In this document: positions 3,869-53,115 of the stretch, in pieces
Layout of the letters: each line of letters starts with the position of its first letter
Position numbering within the stretch: position 1 is the first letter of the stretch
From: the human T2T-CHM13v2.0 reference genome, Homo sapiens
Assembly (NCBI RefSeq): GCF_009914755.1
Contig: NC_060935.1
Length of the DNA stretch: 64,000 bases
Reading direction: 5' to 3' (one strand)
Notes under the pieces: model-generated
Told to the model about the DNA's origin: nothing
Seen by the model: the letters and a program-made list of their open reading frames with translations, nothing else
Database searches by the model: none
Translations under genes and position numbers: made by a program

Positions 3869-4335
3869 GGTGTGTGTGTGTGTGTGTGAAAAGGAGAGAA
3901 AAAACATGCACACGTGTTGCTTAGTAACTTTTTAATAACTCCCATTGCATCTGCAACTGCCAACTTCTCCACTGAAAATATATTTCCTACAAATATCCAA
4001 TATTACTCCCTATGCTAATCATTATAGTAGACTTCTTATTCAGCATCAGTTAGGAACAGTGTAAACTGTTCATGTGTTTGGGTGAAGAAGGGCAGAGCAG
4101 TGATGATGGGGAAGTTGTCAGGCTCACTTTACCAATGCAAAGGTAGGTGAGGGCGTCCTGAAAATTTTGCACACCTACAAACTTATGATTTCAATAGTGT
4201 CTCTGAAAGGCAAAATGTCCATTTGCAATTCTGGAAGTATATGTCATCTTGAACTAGAAGCTTCAGGCTGATTAAGATCTCCTACTTCTAACCTAAAATA
4301 CTGGGCTTCCTAAGACACATTCAAATAAGGTAATT
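3869..4335 (+). promoter_or_regulatory. Putative OR4D6 promoter/first-exon module (copy 1)
   Basis: (GT)n, then AACTTTTTAATAACTCCCATTGCA at 3926-3949 (homeodomain TAAT + O/E-like TCCC), atccaat, and a candidate donor aag|gtaatt at 4330. Homologous to four other copies. Confidence 0.55.
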
Positions 4336-6675
4336 TTTCAAAAATTAAAACTCATTCCATAAACATTACTAAGCCCCTACCATGTGTAAAAAAATAATAA
4401 CTAGCATGATCTCTTTCTTAAAAGGTGATTAAAAGTTAGATGGCAGCAAAAAGACAACTATATAATGATATTAGGATTATGATAATATTAATACCCTACA
4501 TTTGTATAATGCTTTGAAGTTTGCAGTATTCTCTCATATGCATTAAGCCATTTAATTGACTTATACAGCAACATAAGTGAATAGGGGATGTAAGATGAGG
4601 CTGAAAATGGCGTAAAGGAAAACAAATACTTGTTGGGGAACTACTGCACATCAGGAGTTGCAAATGGACACCCCTTTGTTCATTCATCTTCAAAAAGAAT
4701 TATTGAATAACTGCTATGTTCCAGGTAGGAGCTGGGGATACAATAGTGACAAAAGAAATCCTTGCCTTCAGGGAGTTTACATTGGGAGGAAAAGGCAGAC
4801 ACACATAGACCCATAAAGGCAAGGAGTAAAAAGTGCTAGATTATCACAAGCAAGCCTCACTATGCAAAGTAAGGTGTATGTTCCCCATTTCATGGAATAA
4901 GGTCCTGGGGTTCATAAAGGTTAACTTGCTCCAGGTCACAAGAGCCACAGTTTAAAATACTGGAACCTGACTTCGAAGGCTGTGCTCTTTTGAACAAGCT
5001 AATTCTATGTTCAATCATGCAACCCTGAGGTTACAAAATAGAAAGGCTATCGTTTGATCCTGACCTCACATTGAGCCTGATAGTCCAGAACCTTCTAAGG
5101 TGATTGACCAGAAGAGTAGGTGGAATAATGTTAATCTGAAAGAGAAGTCAACAGTAAGTAGATTTGACCTCAGTTCCCAGAGACCTGAGTTGGCTGATTC
5201 CAGGTTCTCCTCTGGGTGCCTCCAGCCAATGCCTCATGGAGCCATAACACACCAAAAGAAAAATTAGAGCTGTCTTTCCCACACACCCTTTTCCATAATA
5301 AGTCAGCTTCTTAGAACAATTTTAAAAACAAAAAACAGAAAAATACAAGATACATAATATCAGAGCTCAAATTAATGGAGAACTTTTTACTTCAAATTGT
5401 AAATAGGTATAATACTTTTTCTGATTTTCATAATCAGAAGCCATTTAAAATCATTTTTTTAATTAGACACAACAGAACGTCTTTTTAAAATAAAAATGCC
5501 AAAATCCAATTACCAACAGATAATGGCTACTACTGTTGTGATATATTAATACATCTTTTCAGACTTCTAGCCATGTAGATATTTTTCCCAAAAATAACAT
5601 CATGTGACATATTCAGTGTTTTAATCTGTCACTAAAAAGAAATCTTTCCATGTTTAAAAGTACAATTCTACGTTATCACTTTGAATGTCTGCAAATACTT
5701 AATTGTACTATTGTGCCATATTTATTGAACAAATTTTCTATATCAGACGCTAACTTAAATTCTAATTTCTACTATTTGAAACAGCAATGTGATGAGCTTT
5801 GTTTATATTTAGGACATTAAACATTTGGTTTATTAACTCTTTAGCATAAATTCCTAAAGTAGAAATTTTGAGTCACGGGGTTTGTACATATTACATTTTG
5901 ACACATATTTCCAGAATGACCCCAGAAATGCTGCCTATGTGTGCACTCCTATTAATCATATGAAAGTGTCACTTTCCCCACATCTATGCCAACAGTGGAC
6001 TTTTCAACATTGGTTAATCTTCTAGATGAGAAATGATACCTCATTGTAATTTAATTTGTATTTCCTTTTTTCTTTCTTTCTTTCCCTTTTTTAATAGAGA
6101 CAGGATCTTCCTATGTTGCCCAGGCTGGTCTCAAACTCATGAGCTCAAGAGATCCTCCCTCCTTGGCCTCCTAATATATTTATCTGATCAATAGTTGATT
6201 GACTGTCTTTTCACATGTGGGCTAACCAACTGTATTTTTCTGTGAATCATGACTCATTTTTGTTTTAAAGTATCAAAATGTCTGTGTCTTACAGATTTAT
6301 AAGAGTTCTTTATATAGCAAAGATGTTAAGCTTGTTTTACATGTTTTTAGATATTTTCCCAAGTTTTTTATTTATAGTTTTAGGCTTATTTATAATGCTT
6401 TTAAAATGTAAAAGTTTTATATTTTTACTTAGTCAAATATAATAATTATTGGTGTAATGCTCCTCTACTCCAAAAATTATGAAAACACTTACCTAAGTTT
6501 TATTCTAATATTTTAATTGTTTTATATTTTGGTATTTATATTATTAAGGTGATAAAATCTTCTTGTCTTCCATTTCTGTAAGAAGTTAAAGAGTGTTGCA
6601 ATTTATTTCAACTCATGGTATCTATATATAAAAAGAAATTAAACATTCAAACACAATTAGAATTGGGCTGTGTCC

Positions 6676-6957
6676 TTTTTTTTTTTTGGAGACAGGTTCT
6701 CGCTCCATCACCCAGACTGGAGTACAGTGGTGCAATCACAGTTCACTGAAGAGTTTCGATGTCCCAGGCAGAATTGATCTGCCCAGTTCAGCCTCCTGCA
6801 TATCTGAGACTACAGCATACACCACCACCAGGCCCAGCTAATATTTTTTGTAGAGACAGGGTTTCAGGCTGGTCTCAAACTCCTGGCCTCAAGTGATCTG
6901 CCCACCTCCATCTCCCAAATTGCTGGGATTAAAGGTGTGAGCCACCACACCCAGTCT
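6676..6957 (-). mobile_element. Old Alu (AluJ-like)
   Basis: T-tail followed by diverged reverse-complement Alu. Confidence 0.85.
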
Positions 6958-6960
6958 GTT

Positions 6961-7955
6961 TCTTTTTTTTTTTTTTTTTCACTTTTATTTTAAGTTCAGG
7001 GGTGTAAGTGCAGGTTTGTTACATAGGTAAACTTGTTGTACAGATTATTTCATCACCAAGGTATTAAGCCTAGTGTCCATTAGTTATTTTTCCTGATCAT
7101 CTCTCTCCTCCCACCCTCCACTCTCCAAAAGGTCCCAGTATGTGTTGTTCCCCTCTGTGTTTTCCTGTGTTCTCATCACTTAGCTCCCACTTATAAGTGA
7201 AAACACGCAGTATTTGGTTTTTCTCTTCCTGCGTTAGTTTGCTAAGGATAATGGCCTCCAGTTCCACCCATGTCTCTGCAAAGGACATGATCTCATTCTT
7301 TTTTATAGCTGCATAGTAATCCATGGTGTATATGTACCACATTTTCTTAACTCAATCTATCATTGATGGGCATTTAGGTTGATTCCATGTCTTTGCTATT
7401 GTGAATAGTGTTGCAGTGAACATACACGTGCATGTGTTTACAATATGATGATTTATATTTCTTTGGGTGTATACCTAGTAATAGAATTGCTGGATGAAAT
7501 GGTATTTCTGTCTTTAGATCTTTGAGAAATCGCCACACTGTCTTCCACAATGGCTGAACTAATTTACATTCCCACCAATAGTTTATAAGCATACTTTTTC
7601 TCCACAACCTTGCCAACATCTGTTATTTTTTGACTTTTTAATAGTAGCCATTCTGACTGGTATTAGGTGGTATTTCATTGTGGTTTTGATTTGCATTTCT
7701 GTAATGATCAGTAATGTTTAGCTTTTTTTCACGATTGTTGGCTGCATGTGCATCCTCTTTTGAAAAGTGTCTGTTCACGTCTTTGCCTGTTTTTTTATGG
7801 AGTTGTTTGGTTTTTTCTTGTAAATTTATTTAAGTTCCTTATAGATGCTGGATATTAGACCTCTGTTGGATGCATAGTTTGCAAAAAATTTTCTTCCATT
7901 CTGCAGGTTGTCTGTTTACTCTGTTGGTCGTTTCTTTTGCTGTGCGGCAGCTATT
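6961..7955 (-). mobile_element. 5'-truncated L1PA (older subfamily)
   Basis: T-tail, L1 3'UTR and ORF2 C-terminal peptides (MWYIYTMDYYAAIKK). Confidence 0.9.
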
Positions 7956-8558
7956 TACAATACCTTTATCATCAGTTAAAATTAGAAAACTAACGTGGCA
8001 TTTGAACTAGTAAGTTCATTTCTGGGAATGTATCTTAAAAAGAAATCATAGATGCACATGAAAATGCATTTACAAAATGTTAAGTGCAGGATTATTCAAA
8101 AATACTAATCAGGGACCGACTAGGCAACTGAAGAGATCAAGGTATGGCTTTTGTAGCCCCTCACTTCCTGTACATTCTACAAGCCTGACTCAAAATGCCA
8201 CCCACTCACCCTGGTTTCCATACTTTCTATCTTAAGTCCTGAGTCCCAAACTGCTGTGCTCTCCTGGCTGGTGTCTCGTTCCATTTTAGCCATCATGACT
8301 GACGCTTATTCTTCACCTGCCTGATTCCCACATACCTATGAAAACCTCTCTCTACCTTAGTAACCAATGTATTTCCCATCACATTCCACAAGGGATCAGG
8401 GAGATCTTGCAGCAATAACAAAGAACTACCTACAGTAAAACAATAGAATGTAAATAAGGAACTGTTAAGAGGCTACATGTGAAAAATTATGGAGTAGAAA
8501 ATTAAGTCACTCATACGTTTTTGAATGTATGAAAGCCAAAGCAAAGATACATAGTCAG

Positions 8559-8839
8559 GGCCTGGCGCGGTGGCTCACGCCTGTAATCCCAGCACTTTGG
8601 GAGGCTGAAGTGGGTAGATCACCTGAGGTCAGGAGTTCCGGACCAGCCTGGCCAACATTGCAAAACCCTGTCTCTATTAAAAATACAGAAATTAGCCAGG
8701 CATGGTGGCGCGTGCCTGCAATCCCAGCTACTTGGGAGGATGAAGCAGGAGAATTGCTTGAACTGGGAGGCGGAGGTTGCAGTCAGCCAAGATCGCACCA
8801 CTGCACTCCAGCCTGGGCAACAGAGCAAGACTCTGTCTT

Positions 8840-8870
<31 letters not shown>
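8559..8870 (+). mobile_element. AluS with tail converted to (CA)n
   Basis: Full Alu; TSD caaagatac(a/g)(t/c)agtcag at 8542-8558 and 8869-8885. Confidence 0.93.
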
Positions 8871-8872
<2 letters not shown>

Positions 8873-9346
8873 GATACGCAGTCAGTTACACAATTCTTAT
8901 TGCCTCAAAAAAGAACGCACATTGATGTCCCACGGGAGCTCTGCCTTGCACTTGGGTCTAGGATAACTGTCTTCTTTGGAGTCTCCTGGGAAGAACCAAA
9001 TAGATCTTGGCCTGAGTACAATCCAAAGATGGATGCTTCTCCTTGTAGACACTCTAATAAAAGGCAATAACATAATTCCAAATACATTGTACCAGTTAGT
9101 GTGTTACTGGATGCTGGCATATTAAAGTAAGATTTCTTTTGGGCTGTATACCTTAAATATGTGCAATTTTTAAAAGACTGTAAAAAGTTTTTTAATTAAA
9201 AATAAATAAATAAAAATAAAAGAGGCAACTCACTTCCACAGGAATGAAATTATTCTAATGGTGGAAACATCAGGGATCTAAGAAGATCACAAGATTTTTG
9301 TTTAAGAGGAATTCTGTATGTTCTAACCCCTCAAACTAAACTATAA

Positions 9347-9869
<523 letters not shown>

Positions 9870-9894
9870 CCTTAAATTTTTTAAAATCATCTAG

Positions 9895-10268
<374 letters not shown>

Positions 10269-10824
10269 TTCATACAGATATTCTTACTGAAAGAAGTTTG
10301 TCCTCATATGACTGAATTTCTGATTTGGGAAAAAGAAGTATCAATATAGTAAATTGCTATTATATAGCAATAGTAGAATATCCCTGGAATTTGAGTCAAC
10401 AAACCTGTTTACAGTTCTCTATATTTCACCAATTCAAACTCTGATTCTGAAAAAAATAAATGTCCTTCTCTAGTCACTTCTAAAGTAAGAAACATTAGAC
10501 TAATTTATCTCTGAAGTCCTGTGACGCTCTAATGATCAGTTTTTCTGTGATACTAAAACATGCCCTGAACAATGACTGTGGCTCTATACAAAGAGCCCTG
10601 TGTGTCAATAGCAAGGTCCAGGCTTCCCAGAGTGCCAAAGAGGAGTACTTATGAGGGCCTGACCCTTCTCTTTTTATAAGGGATGAGACAAGGATTAGGT
10701 AGTCAAACTACTTAATAAACTGTTTAAGCCTTATATACACACTAGAATTCTGGTAAGCCAAAGTAAGCCCCAGACTCTCTGATTTCTCAGAGTTGTACAG
10801 TGGAAAAACCTCTGGAGACTGTTA

Positions 10825-11305
10825 TGTTAAAGAAAAATTATTCACCAGACAATTATTAAAGACAGGAAGATAGATTTCATTTAAAACTCTTGCAATAGAA
10901 GAAAAAGATTGAGCTCAACTCGAAATATAGTGAAAACAAGTGAAGATTTATAAGCAATGAGCAGAGTGAGGGAGGTCAGTGGATTGAAAATTACTAAGAA
11001 GTGATATCAAAGGTAGGGTGGTTCTTGCTAAACTGGCATAAAAGAATTCTTGCTAAAGACTGGCCAAGGACTTAGATATTGAGGGTGAGGGATGAGGTTA
11101 AAAATAATAAATATATAAAAGGGTAAGGGGTGAGGAATTTGATTAGATTTCAAGGGTGTGGAATTCTCATTAAACTGACTTGGCAAGATTCCTGTTAAAA
11201 TTGGGCTCAGCAAAGACAGACACAGAAGGTCAAGGTTGAGTCATAGTCAAGAAAAGGGCTCAGAGGAGCCTAACCAACATTTGGTCAAGGAGGGAATCTT
11301 TCTCA
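10825..11305 (-). mobile_element. MER31-like ERV1 solo LTR
   Basis: TG...CA ends; reverse complement starts tgagaaagattccctccttgaccaaatgttggttaggctcctctgagccc, like the MER31 5' end as I recall it. Confidence 0.7.
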
Positions 11306-11747
11306 AGTCAGGAGATTGATTTGTATTTGAATCCTCAATTTACAATTCACTAATTTTGCGACTATGCAGATGTAAGTCATTAACTGCTGTAAAGCTTCAG
11401 TTTCCCCGTATATAAAATGGAGATAACCATACTAAAGACTCTTCAGAAACTTCATGAGAATTGAAATCAGTATGAGCTATTGCAGGTGAAAGCCCTTGGT
11501 AAAGCAGAGGCAAATGGCCATAGTCCATCCATCTCTCTCTGGTCAGAGTGAGGATACAGACATGTGATGGTTTTTTCCTGTTAACCCAAGGTATTTACAA
11601 TAAGAAAGAAGAACCATATGAAAGAAGAATTTCCAGACCACAAAGAGAAGACTGGCCCAGTTTTTCTGTGTAGTCATGATGACCTGGATGCTTGAGAGCA
11701 GTATGTGATCAATGATTTTGCCACCTCATGTCACCATAATCCAAGTT

Positions 11748-11771
11748 CTAACATATCTTCATCAAAGGTAG
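11748..11771 (+). promoter_or_regulatory. Candidate splice acceptor for the OR4D6 coding exon
   Basis: ctaac branch-like motif, short pyrimidine stretch and AG at 11766-11767 or 11770-11771, about 25-30 nt before the ATG. Confidence 0.3.
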
Positions 11772-11796
11772 GACCTGGAAGAGAGTCATCCCCATC

Positions 11797-12741
11797 ATGG
11801 ACCAGATCAACCACACTAATGTGAAGGAGTTTTTCTTCCTGGAACTTACACGTTCCCGAGAGCTGGAGTTTTTCTTGTTTGTGGTCTTCTTTGCTGTGTA
11901 TGTAGCAACAGTCCTGGGAAATGCACTCATTGTGGTCACTATTACCTGTGAGTCCCGCCTACACACTCCTATGTACTTTCTCCTGCGGAACAAATCAGTC
12001 CTGGACATCGTTTTTTCATCTATCACCGTCCCCAAGTTCCTGGTGGATCTTTTATCAGACAGGAAAACCATCTCCTACAATGGCTGCATGGCACAGATCT
12101 TTTTCTTCCACTTTGCTGGTGGGGCAGATATTTTTTTCCTCTCTGTGATGGCCTATGACAGATACCTTGCAATCGCCAAGCCCCTGCACTATGTGACCAT
12201 GATGAGGAAAGAGGTGTGGGTGGCCTTGGTGGTGGCTTCTTGGGTGAGTGGTGGTTTGCATTCAATCATCCAGGTAATTCTGATGCTTCCATTCCCCTTC
12301 TGTGGCCCCAACACACTGGATGCCTTCTACTGTTATGTGCTCCAGGTGGTAAAACTGGCCTGCACTGACACCTTTGCTTTGGAGCTTTTCATGATCTCTA
12401 ACAACGGACTGGTGACCCTGCTCTGGTTCCTCCTGCTCCTGGGCTCCTACACTGTCATTCTGGTGATGCTGAGATCCCACTCTGGGGAGGGGCGGAACAA
12501 GGCCCTCTCCACGTGCACGTCCCACATGCTGGTGGTGACTCTTCACTTCGTGCCTTGTGTTTACATCTACTGCCGGCCCTTCATGACGCTGCCCATGGAC
12601 ACAACCATATCCATTAATAACACGGTCATTACCCCCATGCTGAACCCCATCATCTATTCCCTGAGAAATCAAGAGATGAAGTCAGCCATGCAGAGGCTGC
12701 AGAGGAGACTTGGGCCTTCCGAGAGCAGAAAATGGGGGTGA
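11797..12741 (+). CDS. OR4D6: Olfactory receptor 4D6 (314 aa, class II OR, 7TM GPCR)
   Basis: Intact ORF with OR motifs [45 protein letters not shown]; N5 glycosylation sequon (NHT); strong Kozak atcATGg. Sequence recognised from memory as OR4D6. Confidence 0.95.
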
Positions 12742-13276
12742 GCAGTCAGATGGAGAGTGGAAGTCTGTCTGACTTAGTTTTCTCAAAATGCTAGCCTAAG
12801 AGTAACAGGTCGCTAGCTCTTCTTCCACTACTTCATTGTATATCTTCATAGCCGCTCGATTCTATTAGCGGGAGTATACAAACAAAAAGAAGAAATGAGA
12901 TTAAACAATGTGAGCTATCGAGCTTGTGGACTCAGGAGAAGAAGAGGGTATAAGGTTGAAATCAATACCCTAAATGCTTTTTGGTGTTACCTGTGACTCA
13001 TACCAACACTTATCTCACTTTTAGCACCAGTAATATGGAAATATCATTACTTGCTCACAAGTTTGTCAAAAGAATGAAATGTGATCAATGCTGTGAGGAT
13101 GATAGTTGTGAAGGTTAGTACTGCTCCTGGCATTAATCAGGTATTCAATCAACATTCCCTATTACCTACCCCTCTTTTCCTAAATGTGCATATACACAGA
13201 ATATAGACACATTTATTTCATATATGCTTTCTCTGGTGACTCTGCTATATCCAGTCAATTATTGAAATCACTTGAT

Positions 13277-13603
<327 letters not shown>

Positions 13604-14399: not shown

Positions 14400-14498
14400 A
14401 GTCGCAGCTACTCATGGCAAAAGGATCATTTGAACCCAGGAGTTGGAGACCAGCTTGGACAATACTGCAAGACCTTGTTTCCACACACACAAAAAAAA
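14400..14498 (+). mobile_element. FLAM/Alu monomer fragment
   Basis: cagctactc...ggatcatttgaacccaggagttggagaccagcttggac followed by an A-rich tail. Confidence 0.6.
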
Positions 14499-14819
14499 TT
14501 ATTAGCCCCCTCAGGGAGCTTTATTCGCTATTTTTCCTAATTGCTCCCTTATGAGGAAATTCAATACCAAAAATATACTGTATATATTTATGTGTACTGA
14601 GGCCATACATCATTGTAATATATAAGTTTTGTTGCTCCCCTGAGAACAAATTGTCTCTTTGGGCATGTCAGGCTCTCATTGAGTATGAATGATTATATGA
14701 CATTAGATGTTTCCAGAGACCAATATTTCCCCAAAACTCAGAGAATCACAGAATAGGTAGATTCATGTCCATGTGTTCTGGGGCCTTGCAAGAATTTGGA
14801 AAGCAGAGAAACGGCATCC

Positions 14820-15827
<1,008 letters not shown>

Positions 15828-16506: not shown

Positions 16507-16910
<404 letters not shown>

Positions 16911-27894: not shown

Positions 27895-28520
27895 TTTAAT
27901 TAGAAACTGGACTGGAAGCAAATTACTTTAGGTCCAGTTCTCCTAGGTTTTTGGCAACCTAATTGGAACCTACAGGTAGATGATGTCCTCTGAGCCTTGC
28001 AAGCTGTGAAAATTGGGCTCAAAGTCTCTCTGGCATAGCACTTGACATGTATTAACAAATTTCTTATTGAACTGTGGTTAAGGAGATAGGTTTCCTCTAT
28101 TGCCTCTAGAGAATTTGGCCACCAACCAAAATGTACCCATATGTGTCTGTGTATACATGGTATGCTTTGGTAACATTTTAATAACTCCCATTGAAACTCC
28201 CTTACCAACAGCAAAATCAGCCACTTGACTTCTCTGTTGTCCAATAACATTCTCTTTCCAATTCATAAATTAAGCATGAGCCTCAGAGGTTTGAACATAA
28301 GTCAAGGACACAATGGAAAAACTTTAAAAGATATGGTTCTTTGAATCTGACTTTTCTCTCCAAAAGCAGAGCAAAGACACTGCGATATTTAGCATAGCAA
28401 AGGGCTTAACTTTTAAACAAGATTTTCAAGAATTAATGCCAGTAGTCTTCTGTTATGCACTATATCTAATAGCATCAAATTTGTAGTTGGAGTTTTGGGA
28501 TCAAAGGAACTAGGTAAAGA
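27895..28520 (+). promoter_or_regulatory. Putative OR4D10 promoter/first-exon module (copy 3)
   Basis: TAATTA at 27897, AACATTTTAATAACTCCCATTGAA at 28172-28195, O/E-like CCTCAGAGG at 28281, donor tag|gtaaag at 28514. Confidence 0.65.
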
Positions 28521-39833: not shown

Positions 39834-40292
<459 letters not shown>

Positions 40293-40845: not shown

Positions 40846-41323
<478 letters not shown>

Positions 41324-41494: not shown

Positions 41495-42130
41495 TATAAT
41501 TAGAAACTGGACTGGTAGCAAATTATTTGAGGTCCAGTTCTCCTAGGTTTTTGGCAATCTAGTTGAAACCCAGGTAGATGGTGTCCTCTGAGCATTGCAA
41601 GCTGTGAAAATTGGACTCAAAGTCTTGCTGGCATAGCACTCGGAACGTTTTAACAAAGCTTTTAGTGAACTGTGGTCAAGGGGATAGATTTCTTCTATTG
41701 CCTCTAAAGAACTTGGACACCAACCAAAATGTGCCTGTATGTGTCTGTGTGTACATGTGCATGCTTTGGTAACATTTTAATAACTCCCATTAAAACTCCA
41801 TTACCAACGGCAAAATCAGCCACTTAATTTCCACTCTCTTGTCCAATAACATTCTCTTTGCGATTCTTAAATTAAGCATGAGCCTCAGGGATTTGGGCAT
41901 AAGACAGGGACACAATGGAAGAATTTTAAAGATGTGATACCTTGAGTCGGCCCTTTCTCTCCTGAAAGTGGAGCAGACACCAAGATATCTGGTATTCCAA
42001 AGGGCTCTACCTTTAGACAAAATCTTCAAGAATTAATGTCAACAATCTTCTGTCATGCACTGTATCTAATAGCATCCAATTTTTTTTTTTGGAGTTTCAG
42101 GATCAGAGGAAGAAACTAAAGCCATCAACC
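41495..42130 (+). promoter_or_regulatory. Putative OR4D8P promoter module (copy 4)
   Basis: Duplicate of copy 3; AACATTTTAATAACTCCCATTAAA at 41771-41794; CCTCAGGGA at 41883. Confidence 0.6.
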
Positions 42131-42327: not shown

Positions 42328-42709
<382 letters not shown>

Positions 42710-43569
42710 TCAAATGTTTATCTTCACAACTTTTTTCAAACAATCTTTCTAGAAAAATTTAGAGCCCATGTAGAATACTGGGGAAAAGGCACTATTTCTT
42801 TTATCCTATTTCCATCTTTTGTATTTTATACATCTGTTCCTTCAGCCAAACATAGATTCTGGAAATATTTCATGTGAAGTACAGGAATAGCATCAATGCT
42901 TACCCAATAGATGGTGGTAAGAATTAAATTAATCAAATTTTATGCTGCTTCACACATAGGAATCACTCAGAAAAGTAAAAGCTTTTGTTTTTACTGGAAA
43001 TCATCATATCTTCTATCATGCTTCCAATCTCACCCAAATCTATCTTGTTAAACACTGACAATGTGGTCCAATTTATCCATATGCATTTGAAGATTGCAAT
43101 AAATATTCACTAGGTGGAGCAAGTAATAATAATTTAAAATGTTTCCTTCAAATGATCAATGACAGCTTATAAACATTGGCATTATTCTAAAGATGACAAT
43201 GTCTCTCACTGCTGCATGGTCCCAACACCCTCTTACTTTGATCCAAAAAGGGAAAGAGCAGAAGAAAGTCTAATGAGACAGTGTAGGCTGCCTCTCAGAA
43301 GGGGTCACTGTCTTTTTCTCTCCTCCACACTGGAGCGAGAACCACAGCCTTCCATCACCACTTTCCAGAACACCCTCCTCCACATGATACTAGAAATTCA
43401 TGGATCAAAGTTGAGAGTAAAGAAGTCGAAGGACATTGCCCCCACCCACCATGGAGGAACATTTTAGGCTTTACTATCCTGAATATGAGAACAAGGAGGT
43501 CAGTAGACAGTTCAATCATGCACTAACCAACCAGTACCTAACAAACACTGAATGTAATGATAAGCTCTT

Positions 43570-43899
<330 letters not shown>

Positions 43900-45539
43900 C
43901 TAATAAAAACCTCCTTTCATTCCACACTCTCCCACTCTGTGCCAACCACACTGCATTTTCCAATATTCTTCTGTATAAGTATGTCATCTTCACTACTGAC
44001 TGACTTTTTACAGGCTGTTTCCTTTGCATGATGTATCCTGCTTCCATTTCTTGGAAATTGATCATGACTGAGGGGAAAAACTCACCTCCTCTAGAAAACC
44101 TTCCTGCGCTATTCCCAGCTAGAGCTCTGCTGTGCTCCCACAGCACTATATTGGTACCAGCATCATCTCTCATGTGTGATTATAAACTTATATTTTTGTA
44201 TTTTCCATTAGAGTGAAAAATGCTCCTGAGTAAGAACCTTGCTGTGGTCATGTGTATATGCAGAATTCCAACCACCCCACGAAGATCACAAAATGTGTGT
44301 TGAAGGGTTAAAGGGCTCATTGGCTAAATAAATGCCTTCTCACTTGCCCTGATAAATGCAGTCTCAGGAATGTAATCGAGTCCAACTTTAGAGAGTCAGG
44401 TTCCATTTTAATGGCATCAATTCTTGCTGCACAAACTTACTGAGATTGTTACAGAAGGGGTGGGAGATTGGTTGGGTTAAACTCATGCTAACCTCAAACT
44501 TATCTTGGAATTTTATTATTTTTTTATAAATATCTCATCTGGGACAGTTTTTCTGCCACCTTTACCCTAATGCAAAGACATAATTCTGGTCAACTGAATG
44601 CTTAAACAAAGATTGTATGTTGTAGCAGATGGAATGTTGGCTTTGGAGCTAAAAGAATCACATTGGAAGTTCAGTTCCATCACTTACCACTGTTGTGAGT
44701 TTGGGCAAATGAACTCACCTTTCTGAGCATCATTTCTTTATTGTAGGGAAGAAATAAAAAACTCTTCTTCATAGGAATAAATAAGACAACCGTTCACAGG
44801 ACATTTTAACTCTTGGGGTATGAATACTAGAGGAGGATCATGACTCTCCAACTGGTTTTCTCCCAACCACCTACAAATGGACCTACTGATGGTGGAGACA
44901 GGAAAGGAGGAAGAACGGGACAGGAGAAAAAAGTAGATTACCAGTTGGTTCCCACCTTTTGACAGAGCCGGAAATTGGGGATCAACAATAAGACCCCAGG
45001 GTCAGTCTTGTAACCTCTTAAATGAATCTCCTCCTTAGCTCGGATCCCTCCTCCTCCCTGCTGGTTCAAACTGATAATGTCCACACTGAATCCATTTGAT
45101 ACAGTCCAGAGATGAGGAGTCAGAGCCCCAGTCATTCAGCTAGTTGATGGCAGAATAAGAACTAGATGGAACCAATGCTCCAATCTCCCAAATCCAGAGC
45201 TCTCTTCACTACATCTCACTGTCTCTCTCAGCAGGAAAATTCTTCCTTTTGGGAAAAAACTAATCACCTTTCAGATTTCCAAAATCACTGAAGGTTCTTA
45301 TCAAAATGCGTTCCTGCACAGGGTAGAAAACTAACTGATAATAATAACAGTATTAATAATACAGCAGCAGCTAAAACAAAAATAAGAACCGGCTGATGGT
45401 CCTTTCACTTCTTACATCTAGAAAAATCAGAACCTTTTGACCTCCACAGCAGCATTAAGTAACAAGATGAGATGAAAATATTTTCTTAAAATAAACAGAA
45501 AACAAAATTATTACAATAACATATTTTAGTGCTATTCAC

Positions 45540-45815
45540 TCTCAAAAGGACAAATACTGCACGATTCCACTTCTAAAATAGTCAAATTCATTGAAACTGA
45601 AAGTAGAATGGTAATTGCCAGGGGCTGATGGGAGAGGGAAGAGGGGAGTTGTTGGTCAATGTGCACAAAGTTTCAGTTATACATATACAAGATGTGTAAG
45701 TCCTAGGGAATTTCTGTACAACATTGTACCTATAGTAAACAGTCCTCTACTGGTACACTTAAAAATTTGTTAAAAGAATAGATGTCGTGTTAACTGTTTT
45801 TACCACAATCAAAAA
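45540..45815 (+). mobile_element. L1MB/L1MA10-type 3' end fragment
   Basis: ggacaaatactgcacgattccac...aaagtagaatggtaattgccagggg...taccacaat. Confidence 0.7.
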
Positions 45816-46530
45816 CATTAATTGTATTCTTTGAGATTTGTTTTTACATGTTGTTTCAAATCTGTTTCCTAATAGCAAATTTAACATGCTTTCAAATAAA
45901 TATTAAGCAAAAAATCTGATTAGTGTAAAGTAGTGACAAGGACAAGTTGACTAAATGAAATCATAGGCTGCAATTTTAAGAAATCTGACAGAATACAACC
46001 AAGAGCTAGGAAATTGATCCGTGACACAGCAACATTGCAATAAGAAATAGAACAGCAAGATAAGACTCTCTTGAAGTCAACAGAATATTAGCTACTATGA
46101 CTATTAAGTGTGTAGACTATAAGTTTCCTAATGGCTGGAACTATGTCTAACTTATCTTTGTATTTAACACTTCACAGTTCCTGGCAACCAATAAGTTTGC
46201 ATGGATATAAAAATAAATAATAAATATAATAAAAATAATCAATTATATTAAATATAATATGTAAATGTCACTATTAAACATGATACGATTATTCTTTCCC
46301 AAAATAGTTTCATAGGAAAATAATTATTGAATGACTTTGCATGTGATAATTTGATCACCAAACTGATTGCTATCTTAAAAATGTGGACAATGCAGCAAAT
46401 AGCGAACACTGCAATCACGAAGGAAGTTTCTGAATTGCATTCTAGTGTGCTTGGGAGGACAATAAAATAAACATCCCTGTGCTGTTGTATGACATAGCTT
46501 GAAACAAAAGAGAATAAAGAGGATGATTCA

Positions 46531-47460
46531 ATGGAGATGAAAAACTGTACCAGGGTAAAAGAATTTATTTTCCTTGGCCTAACCCAGAATGGGGACACAA
46601 GATTGGTCCTATTTCTTTTCCTACTCTTGGTGTACATGACGACTCTGCTGGGAAACCTCCTCATCATGGTCACTGTCACCTGTGAATCTTGCCTTCACAT
46701 GCCCATGTATTTTTTGCTCCATAATTTATCTATTGCCGATATCTGCTTCTACTCCATCACAGAGCCCAAGGTTCTGGTGGACCTTCTGTCTGAGAGAAAG
46801 ACCATCTCCTTCAATGGTTGCTTCACTCAGATGTTTCTCTTCCACCTTATTGGAGGGGTGGATGCATTTTCTCTATCAGTGATGGCATTGGATCAATATG
46901 TGGCCATTTCCAAGTCCCTGCACTATGCGACCATCATGAGTAGAGACCGTTGCATTGGGCTCACAGTGGCTGCCTGGTTGGGGGGCTTTGTCCACTCCAT
47001 TGTGCAGATTACCCTGTTGCTCCCACTCCCTTTCTGTGGACCAAATGTTCTTGACACTTTCTACTGTGATGTTCCCCAGGTTCTCAAACTCGCCCATACA
47101 GACATTTTCATACTTGAGCTGTTGATGATTTCCAACAATGGACTGCTCACCACACTGTGGTTTTTCCTGCTCCTGGTGTCCTACATGGTCATATTATCAT
47201 TACTCAAGTCTCAGGCAGGATAGGGCAGGAGGAAAGTCATCTCCACCTGCATCTCCCACATCACTGTGGTGACCCTGCATTTTGTGCCCTGCATCTATGT
47301 CTATGCCCGGCCTTTCACTGCCCTCCCCACGGATAAGGCCATCTCTGTCACCTTCACTGTCATCTCCCCTCTGCTCAACCCTTGATCTACACTCTGAGAA
47401 ACCATGAGATGAAGTCAACCATGAAGAGACTGAAGACTCTGACCTTCTGATAGGAAATAG
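46531..47460 (+). pseudogene. OR4D8P: Olfactory receptor pseudogene, closest paralog of OR4D10
   Basis: Colinear with OR4D10. GAG>TAG at codon 231 (47221-47223); 1-bp deletion in the NP codons (~47380, giving TGA at 47383); 5-bp deletion near 47435; DRY>DQY. Symbol inferred from its position between OR4D10 and OR4D11. Confidence 0.85.
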
Positions 47461-48337
47461 ACCAGTGCTTCCCTCCTTCTCACCACTTTTGAAAATGCTT
47501 GCCCAGCAAATACTTTCTACTCACTAATTGATTTCTAATTATTTTTTAGTCTACTAATAAGAAGCACATGACTTTCAAACATTCTGATTAGCAGGTCATA
47601 ATAATGTAAAAAAGATGGGTTCTGTGTCACAGGAGAAAGTACAGAGATAAAATTGTTAGCAGGAGAGGTGTATATTGTTTTTGTAATTCAGTCTTGGAAA
47701 ACCTAAAAGAAATGAAATCAAAATACACTCAGACATTTCCACTACAATCCTTTACTGCTGCCAGGAAGGGAGCTGAGACACATATTAGAAATATGATGCA
47801 GCTTGGGCATTAGGATTCCATAAGACCTTTCACAGAGTCATCATATCCTAATTAAAGAAACCACATCCAAGTTAAGTTCCTCCTCCAATCCTGTAAATGA
47901 ACCAAATAAATATCACTGTTAGATTTTTTAATCTAAAGCCCACCTACCGATAGCTGAGAGCAGGTGCTTGGATCAGCATAGCTTGAGTTAGAACATGACC
48001 TCACCTATTGTGACCTCTATGACCTTGAACATAGTTCTAACCTGATCTTCCTCTGAACCCCAGGTCTGCTGGCCCCCGCTCCAGGACATTCCGTCAGTAG
48101 CCTGTGCTTGGCTGTAGCACAACCCTTGGGACCCTGTTTCAATTCCGTGTTCTCTTTCTCCCAATCTCCCCCAGTAGGATTATGCTTTATTTATTGTCAT
48201 ATCCCCAACACCTGGCACAAGTATAATATAATAAACGCTACTGAAAATTACTGAATTAAAACATTCAGTGAAAGACTACTGCCTCTCACTCATTTCTGCT
48301 ACTCAAATCATTGGAAAGTATTGTTAAGAAAATAATT

Positions 48338-49117
48338 AAAAATGCTCACCATCATTGGCCATCAGAGAAATGCAAATCAAAACCACAATGAGATATCATC
48401 TCACACCAGTTAGAATGGCAATCATTAAAAAGTCAGGAAACAACAGGTGCTGGAGAGGATGTGGAGAAATAGGAACACTTTTACACTGTTGGTGGGACTG
48501 TAAACTAGTTCAACCATTGTGGAAGTCAGTGTGGCGATTCCTCAGGGATCTAGAACTAGAAATACCATTTGACCCAGCCATCCCATTACTGGGTATATAC
48601 CCAAAGGACTATAAATCATGGTGCTATAAAGACACATGTACACGTATGTTTATTGTGGCACTATTCACAATAGCAAAGACTTGGAACCAACCCAAATGTC
48701 CAACAACGATAGACTGGATTAAGAAAATGGGGCACATATACACCATGGAATACTATGCAGCCATAAAAAATGATGAGTTCATATCCTTTGCAGGGACATG
48801 GATGAAATTGGAAATCATCATTCTCAGTAAACTATCACAAGGACAAAAAACCAAACACTGCATGTTCTCACTCAAAGGTGGGAATTGAACAATGAGAACA
48901 CATGGACACAGGAAGGGGAACATCACACTCTGGGGACTGTTGTGGGGTGGGGGAAGTGGGGAGGGATGGCATTAGGAGATATACCTAATGCTAAATGACG
49001 AGTTGATGGGTGCAGCACACCAGCATGGCACATGTATACATATGTAACTAACCTGCATATTGTGCACATGTACCCTAAAACTTAAAGTATAATAATTAAA
49101 AAAAAGCATTAAAAAAA
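48338..49117 (+). mobile_element. 5'-truncated young L1PA (L1PA3-5-like)
   Basis: Open ORF2 C-terminus ending at its natural stop (48888), 3'UTR and A tail; 12-bp TSD aagaaaataatt at 48326-48337 and 49118-49129. Confidence 0.95.
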
Positions 49118-51086
49118 AAGAAAATAATTCATTTTTTACTCTCTGAAGACATGACTTCCTAAAAATGACTGAAATCTTTGAAGCTGCTTCGGACTGTGCA
49201 TACTTATTCAAAAAGCTGGAATAAAATGGAAAATATTATTCGATATATCAAGTTGGTTTTTATTTGTTTACTTAATGTGCTATTACAGCTGCTGGGAGTT
49301 ATTCTTTTGTTTTTTGTTTTGCCCATTTCTGGAGGTAGATCCTAGATATCTTAAAATTGTTGAAACTAGCAAAATGTGTATGTCGGTATACAAATCTCAA
49401 TTCACAAATCAGATATGCAAAGGCCCTGAGATGGGGATGTGTCCACAAGGTCAAAGAAACAGCAAGGAGGCCCTTGGGACTAAGTGAGAAGAAGCAAGTA
49501 AGAGAGAGGAAGTGCCTGTAGTTGAGTTCAGAGAGATGGTAGGGTCATGGGGCCAGTTCATCGCAACTTTGTGGACCACTGCACAGCTTTTAGCTTTCAC
49601 ACTGAGTAAGATGTGGCACATTTGGAGGCCTTCAAGGAGCAGAAGAGGTGTAAGGACAAAAACCAGGCAGCAATTCAGAGCCTACTATAATAGCCCCATG
49701 AGAGAAAGAATGAAGACATGACTTAGAATGGTAATGGTGGTCATGGTGAGAAGTTTGAAAAACGTTGAAGGTCAAGTTGGCATGATTTGCAGATGAACCC
49801 AACATAGGTTTCCTGACTACTATGCATCCCGTGAGAACTCCATCATCCAATTTTGTCATCAGGCCATTGAAAGTTCCTTCATTCTCACCTACACGATCCC
49901 TTCAGATCCAATATCTCCTTCCAGTACTTATGTGTCACACTTCAGACTCATCTTGCATGCATGGGACTGCAAGAATAGAAACTTATTTCCCAGCAGAAGC
50001 CAGAGGTTAACCTCTTCTAGTCATATTGTAGGAGTCAGTATAGCTGTGGAATCTTCTTCAGGACTCACGCTCTCCAGAAAGCATCCAGGTAATCCAAGCT
50101 AGGAAAATAAATAAATTAAAATAAAATTAACTTTTTATATTCATGAATAAATGCTGTACCTGGAAATAATAATATAAAAAGTCAGGTTTTTGTTTTGTTT
50201 TCTTTGGTTGGTACCATTTATTGTGTCATTTATTTATATTTTCAAATCACTTAATAAATTTTTTTTAACATAGGCACCAGTTTTTCTTGGAGAAATGACT
50301 GATTTTAGGACTGGGGCAGGGAATATACAATATAAGCCTGGAGCACCTTTTAGCACCAAAAAACAAGGAAATGTTTAAAAAGCAAAACAGTGGAGGTATG
50401 TCAAAGGGGCACAGGAGCCAACTGAAAGAATTTCCCATGGCCAAAGTTGGAACGACAAAATACATAATGTAGTCAAGGATTATAACCCAAAGTATAAAAT
50501 AAATATCCATGAGCCCAGTCATAAATAAACGATTAAATAAATCAATAAATGGAGGATAATAGACAAGTCTTGCATGCAGGAGAATTCCAAATAATGTATG
50601 TAGATTGTCCACCCTCAAGGACGTGGAGCATGACTCCCGATTTTTTTTTTAATTGAGACATGATCTCACTCTGTTGCCCAGGCTGGAGGGCAGTGGTGCA
50701 TCTTGGCTTATTGCAGCCTCAACCTCCTAGGCTCAGGCGATCCTCCCACCTCAGCCTCACAAGTAGCTGGGACTATAGGCAGGTGCCACCATGCCTGGCT
50801 AATTGTTGTATTTTTAGTAGAGACAGGGTTTCACCCTGTTTCCCAGACTGGTTTCAAACTCCTGAGCTCAAACAATACTCCTGCCTTGGCCTCCCAAATT
50901 GCTGGAATTGCAGGCACAGGCCACCACACCCAGCCCCAACTCTCTAAGTGTGAGTTATAAATAGTTATCTCCTCTCTCCAAAGAGTACAGTTTTTTAAAA
51001 TCCTGGGGAAACCTGACAAAGACTACCTCAGCCGGGTGTTCAAAGTTAACATCATCAGTGATCAATCATGTTAGTGGCATGTACCC

Positions 51087-51454
51087 TAATATGGTTTGAC
51101 TATGTCCTCACCCAAATCTCATCTTGAATTGTAGTTCCCATAATTCCCATGTGTTGTGGGAGGGATTTGGTGGGAGATAATTGAATCATGGGGGTGGTTT
51201 CCTCCATACTGTTCTCATGGTAGTGAATAAGTCTCACGAGATCTGATGGTTTTATAAGGGGTTTCTCCTTTTTCTTGGTTCTCATTCTCTCTTCCCTGCC
51301 ACCATGTAAGACATGACTTGCTCCTCCTTGCCTTCCGCCATGACTGTGAGGTTTCCCCAGCCATGTGGAACTGTGAGTCAATTAAACCTCCTTCCTTTAT
51401 AAGTACCCGGTCTCTGGTATGTCTTCATCAGCAGTGCAAAAACACACTAATACA
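51087..51454 (+). mobile_element. THE1 (MaLR) solo LTR
   Basis: taatatggtttgactatgtcctcacccaaatctcatcttgaattgtag...actaataca; 5-bp TSD taccc/tacca. Confidence 0.92.
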
Positions 51455-51579
51455 TACCATTTGATATGATGTGATGAGAGTGGCATTTGGCCTCTGTGTT
51501 CTTTCTCCCAGACATCTGCAACCCCTGTCTAACCATGAGAAAATCATCAGGACCAGCCAAACTGAAGAACATCATATAA

Positions 51580-52104
51580 CAGCAGTCCCCAACCTTTTTG
51601 GCATCATGGGCTGGTTTCACAGAGGATAATTTTTCCACAAATGAAGGTGGTGGGGAAGGTTTTGGGATGATTCATGTGCGTTACATATATCCTGCACTTT
51701 ATTATTATTACATGTAATATACGATGAAATAATTATACAACTTGCCATAATGTAGAATCAGTGGTAGCCCAGGGCTTGTTTTTCTGCAACAAGATGGTCC
51801 CATCTGGGAATGATGGGAGACAGTGACAGATCATCAGGCGTTAGAGTCTTATAAGGAGCAACCAACCTAGATCCCTTGCATGCAGAGTTCACAGTATTGT
51901 TCCCACTCCTATAAGAATCTAATGTCCCCACTGATCTGACAGGAGGTGGAGCTCAGGCAGTAATGCCAGCAGTGAGGAGCAGCTGTAAATACAGATGAAG
52001 CTTCTGTCACTTGCTTACCCCCTACTCACCTCCTGCTGTGTGGCCTGGTTTCTAACAGGCCAAAAGCTGGTAACAGTTCATGGCCTGGTGGTTGGGGACC
52101 CCTG
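51580..52104 (+). mobile_element. MER1A (hAT-Charlie MITE)
   Basis: Terminal inverted repeats cagcagtccccaacc / ggttggggacccctg; 525 bp. Confidence 0.88.
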
Positions 52105-52744
52105 TTCTATACAATACTTGACAATGACTCTCAGTACTGTCAAGGTCATCAAAAACAAGGGAAACAATGGAAGCAATTATGGCCAATATTCCATTTTTAG
52201 AAGCTTAAAGCTGTAGATCTTAAAGATGGTCAAACAATGAAGCTAGCTATTGAGTAGAATCACATTTCTCACTGTGTGGCCATCTTGGTGTCTCGTTTCA
52301 TTTGACTTTATTTTTCTTAGTATAGACAGCCAACCACACTACTCTGTCCTGTGCCTGCTTCAACCTCTTCCCAGACTGGGGATTCCTAGTCAGTAAAGTA
52401 AGTGTTGAGATCTGGAGAAGGGATGAGCCTTCCCCAAAGCTCGCATGCCCATGTACTGTTTGTTACTAAAGGTTCCATTTCCAGTTCTCTTTGTGCAAGT
52501 TGTTAGACTTGGAAATAGAATAGGATGGAAGACCGGGCAGTGAGTCCAGTGCCCTCGTCACCTCCAAGTTTCTCTGCACCATGGGCACTCGTGGAAGGGT
52601 GCCCTCTGATCGCCAAGAACAGCACTTTTTGGACTTTCTCAGGAATACAGCTTGACTTGTTTCCACACAACCTTTCTTCCTTTTGAAGCCAGAAGATAAG
52701 GGGATTAATTCTTTCAGTTGCCTCTGAAAAATTTTAGGCTCCAG

Positions 52745-53115
52745 ACAAAATGTGTGTTCCTAAGCATATGTGTCTGAGTGACTTCTTAATTACTCCCACT
52801 GAAACAACCTCACCATCAGCAGAATTTTTCCACAACTGCATCCAACTGTAATCCCTCTGATAATTCTCACACTAGTTCTGGGATTAAGGAACTGGTAAAT
52901 ATGATGGGACACTGTGAATCAGTGTGGAAGAGCCAAGAAAATATCATTCCCTAAGTCCTTTCCACATTAAGATAGAAGAGATGCCATTGAAATAACCGGC
53001 CTTCAGAGGGGTGTTGAGCAGAATTTTCTGAAGTTGGATGATTCCTGAGATTCATGTGAACATTATTTAAGATGCTGGAATTCTTGGAAGAAGATTGCAG
53101 ATTTTAGGTAAAAAA
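52745..53115 (+). promoter_or_regulatory. Putative OR4D11 promoter/first-exon module (copy 5)
   Basis: GACTTCTTAATTACTCCCACTGAA at 52780-52803, then atccaac...taattctcac, donor tag|gtaaaa at 53108. Confidence 0.55.

What the first reader, a model, noticed from the sequence alone, without database searches (positions are those of the whole stretch)
3926..52803. A 24-bp homeodomain + O/E composite motif recurs five times, once upstream of each OR gene plus one extra
Seen: AACTTTTTAATAACTCCCATTGCA (3926), AACTGTTTAATAACTCCCTCTGGA (14894), AACATTTTAATAACTCCCATTGAA (28172), AACATTTTAATAACTCCCATTAAA (41771) and GACTTCTTAATTACTCCCACTGAA (52780). All are on the + strand, preceded by a TG-rich tract and followed by a tccaa(t/c)...aatt/aatc block. 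Four lie 7.9, 4.1, 4.8 and 5.7 kb upstream of OR4D6, OR4D10, OR4D8P and OR4D11. The core survives although copies 1, 2 and 5 are otherwise barely alignable. Known: OR promoters and enhancers use Lhx2 (TAATNN) and Ebf/Olf1 (TCCCNNGGGA) sites, and mouse Greek-island enhancers carry a closely spaced Lhx2-Ebf composite. Here the spacing is an invariant TAATwA-C-TCCC. Inference: this is the ancestral OR4D-subfamily promoter core.
Basis: partly seen in the sequence, partly recalled or inferred. Interest (0 to 1): 0.75.

Follow-up and report, generated by a model that had tools for sequence, protein, structure and literature searches.

The report
Shared promoter motif of OR4D genes
A 24-base signal that looks like a paired docking site for two olfactory-neuron transcription factors sits at the head of every OR4D smell-receptor gene unit here and has stayed almost unchanged while the DNA around it drifted, so it is very probably a working promoter element of a known general kind.

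Summary
TTAATWACTCCC occurs 5 times in the window, all on the + strand, against 0.06 expected. It is not a repeat: genome-wide there are 843 hits against 996 for the reversed control.

It is the best-kept block of a paralogous promoter/first-exon module. Two more copies lie just right of the window, before OR4D9 and OR4D7P. Two more lie 6.8 and 3.1 kb upstream of the two chr17 OR4D-like genes. Mean pairwise identity in the core is 0.92, against a median of 0.32 in the flanks. Synonymous sites between these paralogues are saturated, with dS 1.27-2.2.

RefSeq exon 1 of OR4D10 starts inside the motif.

The left half matches the published extended homeodomain site AACTTTTTAATGA at 9-12 of 13 positions. 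TAAT + 3 nt + TCCC is the same register as the published Sfaktiria Greek-Island Lhx2/Ebf composite probe.

Caveats:
- The Ebf half is weak in most copies.
- No binding data or exact start sites were available.
- The OR4D5-like gene lacks the motif.
- Six other OR4-family genes on chr14/15 carry it, so it is older than the OR4D subfamily.
- The copy at 14894 has no gene.

Verdict: new member of a known kind.

The parts
3926..3949 (+). Copy 1 of the motif (AACTTTTTAATAACTCCCATTGCA). It lies 7,871 bp before the OR4D6 ATG and inside the RefSeq OR5A1 last exon.
   Evidence: It matches the extended homeodomain site at 12 of 13 positions. Twenty-two nt are identical to chr17 copy a.
14894..14917 (+). 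Copy 2, the orphan. No OR coding sequence follows it before OR4D10. Its O/E 10-mer TCCCTCTGGA has 1 mismatch, the lowest count, shared with the OR4D9 and OR4D7P copies.
   Evidence: tblastn finds no OR relic between 12.7 and 32.3 kb.
28172..28195 (+). Copy 3, at the 5' end of OR4D10. RefSeq exon 1 starts at 28187, within TCCC.
   Evidence: and the hub annotation.
41771..41794 (+). Copy 4, before the pseudogene OR4D8P. The otherwise invariant G at motif position 21 (counted from 0) is A here.
52780..52803 (+). Copy 5, 5,675 bp before the OR4D11 ATG. It has TAATTA.
3996..4020 (+). Second conserved block of module 1: a CCAAT-like element, then an O/E-like TCCC, then a homeodomain core (CTAAT), followed by a TATA-like stretch.
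14964..14988 (+). Second conserved block of module 2.
28240..28263 (+). Second conserved block of module 3.
41842..41865 (+). Second conserved block of module 4.
52841..52866 (+). Second conserved block of module 5.
3864..3888 (+). (TG)n tract before copy 1.
14826..14858 (+). (TG)n tract before copy 2. This is the only part of the module with genome-wide matches.
28187..28513 (+). RefSeq OR4D10 exon 1. Its donor is CTAG|GTAAAG, with GT at 28514.
   Evidence: Hub annotation. Canonical splice sites were checked.
15246..15254 (+). Putative splice donor TAG|GTAAGA of the orphan module, 355 nt after the motif start. It is homologous to the OR4D10 donor at +342 and the OR4D11-module donor at +328 (GT at 53108).
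4144..4152 (+). Putative donor TAG|GTGAGG of module 1, 221 nt after the motif start. It is shared in position with both chr17 modules.

Best explanation
The 24-mer is the selectively maintained core of a promoter/first-exon module that was copied along with each OR4D gene unit. The module runs: motif, about 45 nt, a CCAAT-like + TCCC + TAAT block, a TATA-like stretch, and a splice donor 220-355 nt after the motif start.

It most likely works as a composite docking site. A LIM-homeodomain factor (Lhx2, possibly Emx2) would bind the extended homeodomain half, AAC(T/A)TTTTAAT(A/G/T)A. An Olf/Ebf dimer would bind the abutting O/E-like half, TCCCNNNGNA. The fixed 3-nt spacer would let the two bind together, as on Greek-Island composites. 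That would open the promoter and set how often the gene behind it is chosen in olfactory neurons.

Shown here: the motif exists, is far above chance, is not a repeat, is always in sense orientation before OR4D-type genes, is conserved across saturated divergence, coincides with the one annotated OR4D 5' exon in the window, and shares its register with one published composite.

Inferred: which proteins bind, that they cooperate, and the effect on transcription.
For: - Chance: 5 exact copies against 0.06 expected.
- Not a repeat: the 12-mer has 843 genome hits against 996 for the reversed control. The 23-nt pattern has 9 hits against 6, with 5 of the 9 in this window. A 321-nt module query finds only itself and copy 4. 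The chr17 module finds only itself. The orphan module matches elsewhere only through its TG microsatellite, apart from copy 4.
- One copy per gene unit: 7 modules for 6 OR coding regions over 94 kb, plus sense-strand copies 6.8 and 3.1 kb before both chr17 OR4D-like genes.
- Selection: across 8 lineages (copy 4 left out as a recent duplicate of copy 3) the best 12-column window has mean pairwise identity 0.92. The median is 0.32 and the 95th percentile 0.62 over 591 windows.
- Saturated divergence: dS is 1.27-2.23 for OR4D6 or the chr17 genes against the rest, and 0.67-0.87 within OR4D9/10/11. Copy 1 and chr17 copy a still share 22 identical nt. DNA next to the ATGs is not alignable.
- Decay at dead genes: both pseudogene-linked copies carry a change at an otherwise invariant position, against 1 of the 7 others.
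- Promoter position: RefSeq OR4D10 exon 1 starts at 28187 with canonical splice sites. The RefSeq OR4D9 start is 261 nt after its motif start.
- Known sites: the extended homeodomain site AACTTTTTAATGA of the mouse H and P elements and P3 promoter is matched at 9-12 of 13 positions. It is the core of the x21 gene-choice enhancer.
- Register: the Sfaktiria probe reads AACTTTTTAATTGA|TCTCCAAGGA, and the authors placed their spacer insertions at the bar. That is TAAT + 3 nt + O/E 10-mer, as here.
Against: - The O/E half is weak. Mismatches to TCCCNNGGGA number 1 in 3 of 9 copies, 2 in 3 of 9 and 3 in 3 of 9.
- By the definitions printed in PMC5638857 (TAATKR, YYYCARRRR), only the OR4D9 copy fits both halves. 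This is my reading of the strings.
- The only annotated 5' end in the window lies inside the motif rather than downstream of it. The human OR models of Barnes et al. were cut where RNA-seq coverage dropped below 3 reads. No call shows whether the RefSeq OR4D10 model derives from them, so its 5' end may be only approximate.
- The register comparison rests on one labelled published instance. The HOMER composite matrix was not available.
- The OR4D5-like gene has no match within 20 kb upstream.
- Olfr1423-1428 are all flagged 'nonGI' in Monahan's source data. That they are the mouse counterparts of this cluster is my recall only.
- No binding, accessibility or cross-species sequence data could be examined.
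Confidence: 0.62

Rival explanations
1. Homeodomain site plus core-promoter initiator. The right half (CCCATT) would be kept because transcription starts on it, not because Ebf binds it.
For: The RefSeq OR4D10 5' end (28187) is 3 nt before the A of CCCATT. Seven of 9 copies fit the initiator consensus BBCABW (the consensus itself is recalled, not taken from a call). A at motif position 18 is kept in 7 of 8 lineages.
Against: G at position 21 is invariant in 8 of 8 lineages and A at position 23 is kept in 6 of 8; both lie outside the six-base initiator consensus, though inside the O/E 10-mer. No TATA-like element is conserved about 30 nt upstream. The OR4D9 model starts 261 nt further on. The copies with the best O/E match (2 and OR4D9) are the two that fail the initiator pattern.
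Confidence: 0.15
2. The modules, or at least the orphan at 14894, act mainly as Greek-Island-like enhancers rather than as promoters.
For: - The register equals a Greek-Island composite.
- The orphan has no gene. It keeps every core position and its O/E half has 1 mismatch, as low as any copy.
- In mouse, the 3-gene cluster Olfr462-464 holds 3 Greek Islands. Naxos lies at distance 0 from Olfr463, whose promoter is flagged 'GI'. Kasos is 5,759 bp from Olfr464.
- Olfr464 is listed as the OR4D1 orthologue.
- Ten of 63 islands lie within 500 bp of an OR start site.
Against: Six of 7 cluster modules and both chr17 modules sit in sense orientation 3-8 kb before a coding exon, with splice donors. OR4D10 exon 1 starts there. 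The mouse island sequences could not be read, so it is not shown that they hold this motif. Olfr1423-1428 are 'nonGI'.
Confidence: 0.12
3. Neutral leftover of duplication or gene conversion, with no function.
For: Copies 3 and 4 are recent duplicates, 82% identical over 842 nt.
Against: The other lineages have saturated dS and flank identity near 0.32. A 22-nt identity links chr11 and chr17 with no flanking identity. Changes at invariant positions are concentrated in the pseudogene-linked copies.
Confidence: 0.03
4. A piece of a dispersed repeat.
For: Look-alikes of the left half occur at 518 (+) and 48411 (-), inside stretches the hub lists as masked.
Against: Genome counts equal the reversed-pattern controls. 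Module queries find no family. The look-alikes lack CTCCC.
Confidence: 0.01

Closest known systems
Greek-Island Lhx2/Ebf composite motif (Monahan et al. 2017, PMC5608512; passages and supplementary files 1, 2, 3, 6 and 7 read)
   Same: A homeodomain site and an O/E site abut in one orientation with a fixed gap. The Sfaktiria probe AACTTTTTAATTGA|TCTCCAAGGA and the OR4D motif AACTTTTTAATAAC|TCCCATTGCA share the first 11 nt and the TAAT + 3 nt + 10-mer register. A stretch in the first 400 nt of the LSCHR hub construct, ACTGTTTAATTAGGCCATCAGGA, reads the same way. That stretch is my reading and is not labelled by the authors.
   Different: The published motif is defined on intergenic mouse enhancers bound in most neurons, and is reported as depleted from or absent in OR promoters. 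Here it sits at the 5' ends of human gene units. The second Ebf half-site is weaker. The score under the authors' matrix is unknown.
Extended homeodomain site AACTTTTTAATGA of the mouse H and P elements and P3 promoter, and the x21 gene-choice enhancer ACATAACTTTTTAATGAGTCT (PMC7804114, PMC5638857, PMC8213819, bioRxiv 2021.09.28.462154; passages read)
   Same: Matches at 9-12 of 13 positions in all nine copies, including the AAC and T-run that lie outside the TAAT core.
   Different: PMC7804114 calls the extended site 'distinct from the composite motif'. Here the extended site and a TCCC half-site are fused into one conserved unit. TAATAA replaces TAATGA in 6 of 9 copies.
Generic OR proximal promoters with O/E, homeodomain and TATA elements (Young et al. 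2011, PMC3247239, passages; 2025 review PMC12547500, passages)
   Same: An AT-rich module in sense orientation with homeodomain, O/E-like and TATA-like elements next to a short non-coding first exon.
   Different: Those surveys report enrichment of separate sites. In the Young et al. text, 'spacing' and 'orientation' occur 0 times. Here one fixed arrangement is kept across paralogues whose silent sites are saturated.
Subfamily-conserved OR promoter blocks
   Same: Paralogous ORs of one subfamily share a short conserved promoter block with O/E and homeodomain sites.
   Different: A different subfamily and species. Whether those blocks have this register is not known to me.

Membership tests
OR proximal promoter module | Lies at the 5' end of an OR transcript, in sense orientation | tested here: met
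   RefSeq OR4D10 exon 1 starts at 28187, inside copy 3, with canonical splice sites. The OR4D9 model starts 261 nt after its copy. All 9 copies are on the sense strand. No transcript model with a 5' exon exists for OR4D6, OR4D11 or the pseudogenes.
OR proximal promoter module | Homeodomain (TAAT) site | tested here: met
   TAAT is present in 7 of 9 copies. It is TACT before OR4D7P and TAAC at chr17 copy b.
OR proximal promoter module | O/E (Olf/Ebf) site TCCCNNGGGA | tested here: inconclusive
   The TCCC half is invariant in 9 of 9 copies. The full 10-mer has 1 mismatch in 3 copies, 2 mismatches in 3 and 3 mismatches in 3.
OR proximal promoter module | Drives OR-like expression and is bound by Lhx2/Ebf in expressing neurons | not testable with these tools
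   No expression, ChIP or ATAC data for human OR4D loci were available.
Greek-Island composite motif | Lhx2 and Ebf sites juxtaposed at the stereotyped distance | tested here: met
   Same register as the one labelled instance, the Sfaktiria EMSA probe, with the authors' insertion point at the same junction.
Greek-Island composite motif | HOMER composite score above 5 (permissive) or 10 (stringent) | not testable with these tools
   The matrix is not given in the text or in the supplements read.
Greek-Island composite motif | Sits in an intergenic element co-bound by Lhx2 and Ebf in most mature neurons | not testable with these tools
   There is only indirect mouse evidence. The Olfr462-464 cluster has 3 islands. 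Olfr1423-1428 are 'nonGI'.
Extended homeodomain site (H/P/P3) | Match to AACTTTTTAATGA | tested here: met
   Matches of 12, 11, 11, 11, 10, 11, 9, 11 and 11 out of 13 in the nine copies.
Dispersed repeat | Many genomic copies with extended similarity | tested here: not met

The most novel reading that the evidence does not exclude
OR4D-type promoter modules are dual promoter and Greek-Island elements. A composite normally described as enhancer-only would be built into the promoters of a whole OR4 lineage. That would explain why the mouse Or4d1/2-type mini-cluster has three Greek Islands for three genes, one of them on a start site. The gene-less copy at 14894 would then be a promoter that outlived its gene. 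It would now serve as a human Greek-Island-like enhancer, or as a far-upstream alternative first exon of OR4D10. This would show one route by which OR enhancers arise from OR promoters.
Probability: 0.22. Interest if true: 0.7.

Novelty: new member of a known kind. Interest (0 to 1): 0.5.

Why it matters
OR gene choice is explained today by weak, separate Lhx2 and Ebf sites at promoters and tight composites at enhancers. Here a composite-register site is held fixed at the promoters of an entire human OR lineage, across paralogues with saturated silent sites. That is a clean natural test case for the distinction.

It gives a 24-bp element with obvious mutations to try: the TAAT, the TCCC and the 3-nt spacer. 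It marks the likely promoters of OR4D6 and OR4D11, which are annotated only as coding exons. It also flags an orphan element at 14.9 kb that could be a human OR enhancer or an unannotated first exon.

Tried and rejected
- A wide survey of 60 more OR upstream regions could not be fetched. I replaced it with genome-wide pattern searches without loci. These list only strict matches, so the share of OR4 genes with degenerate copies is unknown.
- I searched the human genome with the published mouse Sifnos forward primer at up to 3 mismatches. This gave 132 hits against 99 for the control, and the list was cut before chr17, so it was uninformative.
- Markenscoff-Papadimitriou 2014 was not held under a recalled PMC id or DOI.
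- Earlier findings of this scan were not open.
- MEF2 and NF-Y readings of the motif were considered by eye and dropped. There is no YTAWWWWTAR and no ATTGG in the OR4D copies.
- A TATA box about 30 nt before the annotated OR4D10 start: only a TATACA at about -38 to -33, not conserved in the other copies.
- Literature search for the exact 11-mers and their reverse complements: 59 papers hold one, 20 were listed, and none of the 20 is about olfaction by title. The other 39 were not seen.
- A search for OR4D10/OR4D6/OR4D11 together with start-site or olfactory-epithelium terms returned 3 papers, none on regulation.

Full report
**Observation.**
- The shared 12-mer TTAATWACTCCC has 5 exact matches in the window. 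Dinucleotide shuffles give 0.06, and 0 of 100 shuffles reach 5.
- With one mismatch allowed there are 6 matches against 0.82 expected.
- The downstream tccaa(t/c)...aat block is present in all five copies.
- The upstream TG tract is long only before copies 1 and 2. It is short before copies 3 and 4 and absent before copy 5.

**Not a repeat.**
- In the whole genome, of which the window is C11:59396001-59460000, the 12-mer occurs 843 times. The same pattern read backwards occurs 996 times.
- The 23-nt pattern ACNNNTTAATWACTCCCNNTNNA occurs 9 times against 6 for the control, and 5 of the 9 are in this window.
- A 321-nt query around copy 3 finds only itself and copy 4.
- A 421-nt query around the chr17 copy finds only itself.
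- A 521-nt query around the orphan copy matches elsewhere only through its TG microsatellite, apart from copy 4.

**One copy per gene unit, and more copies outside the window.** I read 30 kb further right.
- Two more sense-strand copies appear. GACATTTTAATGACTCCCAAAGGA lies at 66157, which is 261 nt before the RefSeq OR4D9 start and 3.6 kb before its ATG. GACTTCTTACTAACTCCCAGTGGA lies at 78432, 8.2 kb before OR4D7P.
- Over these 94 kb there are 7 modules and 6 OR coding regions.
- tblastn with three OR4D proteins finds nothing between 12.7 and 32.3 kb, so the copy at 14894 is an orphan.
- A protein search of the genome listed the closest relatives of OR4D10. The two chr17 genes are 62% identical to it. 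By position I take them to be OR4D1/OR4D2, and those names are recalled. Both carry the motif on the sense strand: TACTTTTTAATAACTCCCATTGCT at 6.8 kb and AACTTTTTAACAACTCCCATTGCT at 3.1 kb before the ATG.
- The distal chr11 gene is 58% identical (OR4D5 by recall). It has no position-weight-matrix hit of 8 bits or more in 20 kb upstream.

**Conservation.** I aligned nine modules and left out copy 4 as a recent duplicate of copy 3.
- The best 12-column window is the motif core, with mean pairwise identity 0.92. The median over 591 windows is 0.32 and the 95th percentile 0.62.
- Twelve positions are invariant in all 8 lineages. These include AC at the start, TTA of TTAAT, ACTCCC, and a G four bases after TCCC.
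- Nei-Gojobori dS is 1.27-2.23 between OR4D6, or the chr17 genes, and the others. It is 0.67-0.87 within OR4D9/10/11. Neutral DNA should therefore be unalignable, and the DNA directly before the ATGs indeed is.
- Copy 1 and chr17 copy a nevertheless share 22 identical bases.
- The two copies attached to pseudogenes each carry a change at an otherwise invariant position: G to A in copy 4, and TAAT to TACT before OR4D7P. Only 1 of the 7 others does. The numbers are small, but the direction fits relaxed constraint.

**Promoter context.**
- RefSeq OR4D10 exon 1 is 28187-28513. Its first base is the first C of the motif's CCC, and all four splice sites of the model are canonical.
- The donor TAG|GTAAR at +328 to +355 is shared by the modules of OR4D10, OR4D11 and the orphan. 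It is destroyed in the OR4D8P module.
- Module 1 and both chr17 modules share a donor AG|GTGAG near +200 to +221.
- The human OR models of Barnes et al. were trimmed where coverage fell below 3 reads (passages of bioRxiv 774612). No call shows whether the RefSeq OR4D10 model comes from that set, so its annotated 5' end may be only approximate.
- I can therefore say the motif is at the promoter to within a few hundred bases. I cannot say whether it lies upstream of the true start.

**What the motif resembles.**
- PMC7804114 and PMC5638857 (passages) print the 'extended homeodomain site' AACTTTTTAATGA of the mouse H and P elements and the P3 promoter. The nine copies match it at 9-12 of 13 positions.
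- The same string is the core of the 21-bp x21 gene-choice enhancer.
- Supplementary file 7 of Monahan et al. 2017 gives the Sfaktiria composite probe. On its R strand it reads AACTTTTTAATTGA followed by TCTCCAAGGA, and the authors' 2-14 bp insertions are placed exactly between the two.
- The OR4D motif is AACTTTTTAAT-AAC followed by TCCCATTGCA. That is the same first 11 nt and the same TAAT + 3 nt + 10-mer register.
- The O/E half is a perfect TCCC plus a poor second half. It has 1 mismatch to TCCCNNGGGA in 3 of 9 copies, 2 mismatches in 3 and 3 mismatches in 3.

**How this sits with the literature.**
- Monahan 2017, the 2025 Chem Senses review and the 2024 Research Square preprint all state that composites are enriched in Greek Islands and depleted from, or not found in, OR promoters (passages only).
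- The OR4D modules are thus an exception in arrangement, though not in ingredients.
- Monahan's own tables show 10 of 63 islands within 500 bp of an OR start site.
- The three-gene mouse cluster chr11:87.88-87.98 Mb has three islands. In that cluster Olfr463 lies at distance 0 from Naxos and is flagged as a 'GI' promoter. Olfr462 is 4,781 bp from Naxos, and Olfr464 is 5,759 bp from Kasos.
- PMC4133803 Table 1 lists Olfr464 as the mouse orthologue of OR4D1.
- I could not read the mouse sequences, so it is not shown that these islands carry the motif.
- Against the idea, Olfr1423-1428 are all 'nonGI'. I recall these as the mouse counterparts of the genes in this window.

**Wider than OR4D.** A matrix built from the OR4D copies gives leave-one-out scores of 20-37 bits.
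- It scores 15.0-18.9 on the sense strand 4.4-5.7 kb before 3 of 10 other OR4-family genes sampled. It finds no antisense hit of 8 bits or more in those 140 kb.
- Genome-wide, TAAYAAYTCCCWTTGR has 41 hits against 31 for the control. Five of them lie on the sense strand before OR4-family coding regions. One of those, C15:19025579, was not used to design the pattern.
- ACNTTTTAAYNACTCCCANTG with up to 1 mismatch has 29 hits against 19 for the control. Twelve are OR-linked: 6 in this cluster, 2 on chr17, 2 on chr14 (4.1 and 2.0 kb before OR coding starts, sense strand), and identical 21-mers on chr18 and chr21.
- The three chr14/15 modules I could read share a downstream block of their own.
- The motif is therefore older than the OR4D subfamily. 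These strict patterns did not find it before the chr11 48-55 Mb OR4 genes.

**Verdict.** This is a real, selected cis-element at the head of OR4D gene units. It is most likely an Lhx2-type plus Ebf-type composite promoter site (0.62).
- The main rival is a homeodomain site plus initiator (0.15).
- An enhancer role, above all for the orphan, is open (0.12).
- Neutral paralogy (0.03) and a repeat origin (0.01) are disfavoured.
- In kind it is a known arrangement in a new place, so interest is moderate.

Noticed in passing
window 518-541 (+) and 48411-48434 (-): Two near-identical look-alikes of the left half, GACTTTTTAAT(A/G)ATTGCCATTCT, score 8.8 and 12.3 bits. Both lie inside stretches the hub lists as masked repeats. 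By recall this string belongs to LINE-1. They lack CTCCC.
   Followed up: partly
window 3926-3949: Copy 1, the presumed OR4D6 promoter, lies inside the 8-kb last exon (3' UTR) of the RefSeq OR5A1 model. One gene's UTR would therefore run over the next gene's promoter.
   Followed up: no
window 53835-53945: The annotated U6 snRNA copy sits about 1 kb after module 5, inside what would be the first intron of OR4D11.
   Followed up: no
L020 (window-equivalent 66100-66156): The OR4D9 module has a GA-rich tract where the other modules have a TG-rich tract.
   Followed up: no
L023 about 3260-3290 and L024 about 7010-7040: Both chr17 modules carry an extra O/E-like site with one mismatch (TCCCCAAGGA and TCCCAAAGGA). 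It lies inside the second block and is absent from the chr11 modules.
   Followed up: partly
G000 C18:14729000 (+) and C21:11930402 (-): These 21-mers are identical to the chr14 copy (ACATTTTAATGACTCCCACTG). They are probably pericentromeric duplicates of the chr14 OR4 cluster. No OR lies within 10 kb of them.
   Followed up: no
L027 about 4990-5020, L033 about 4400-4430, L034 about 5710-5745: Three chr14/15 OR4-family modules share a block of their own, CCCAAAGTACATTCTC(T/C)ATTGCA-like, about 60 nt after the composite.
   Followed up: no
window 41771+330 to +380: In the OR4D8P module the donor shared by modules 2, 3 and 5 reads AAACTAAAG, with no GT. The pseudogene has lost promoter-side signals as well as its reading frame.
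   Followed up: partly
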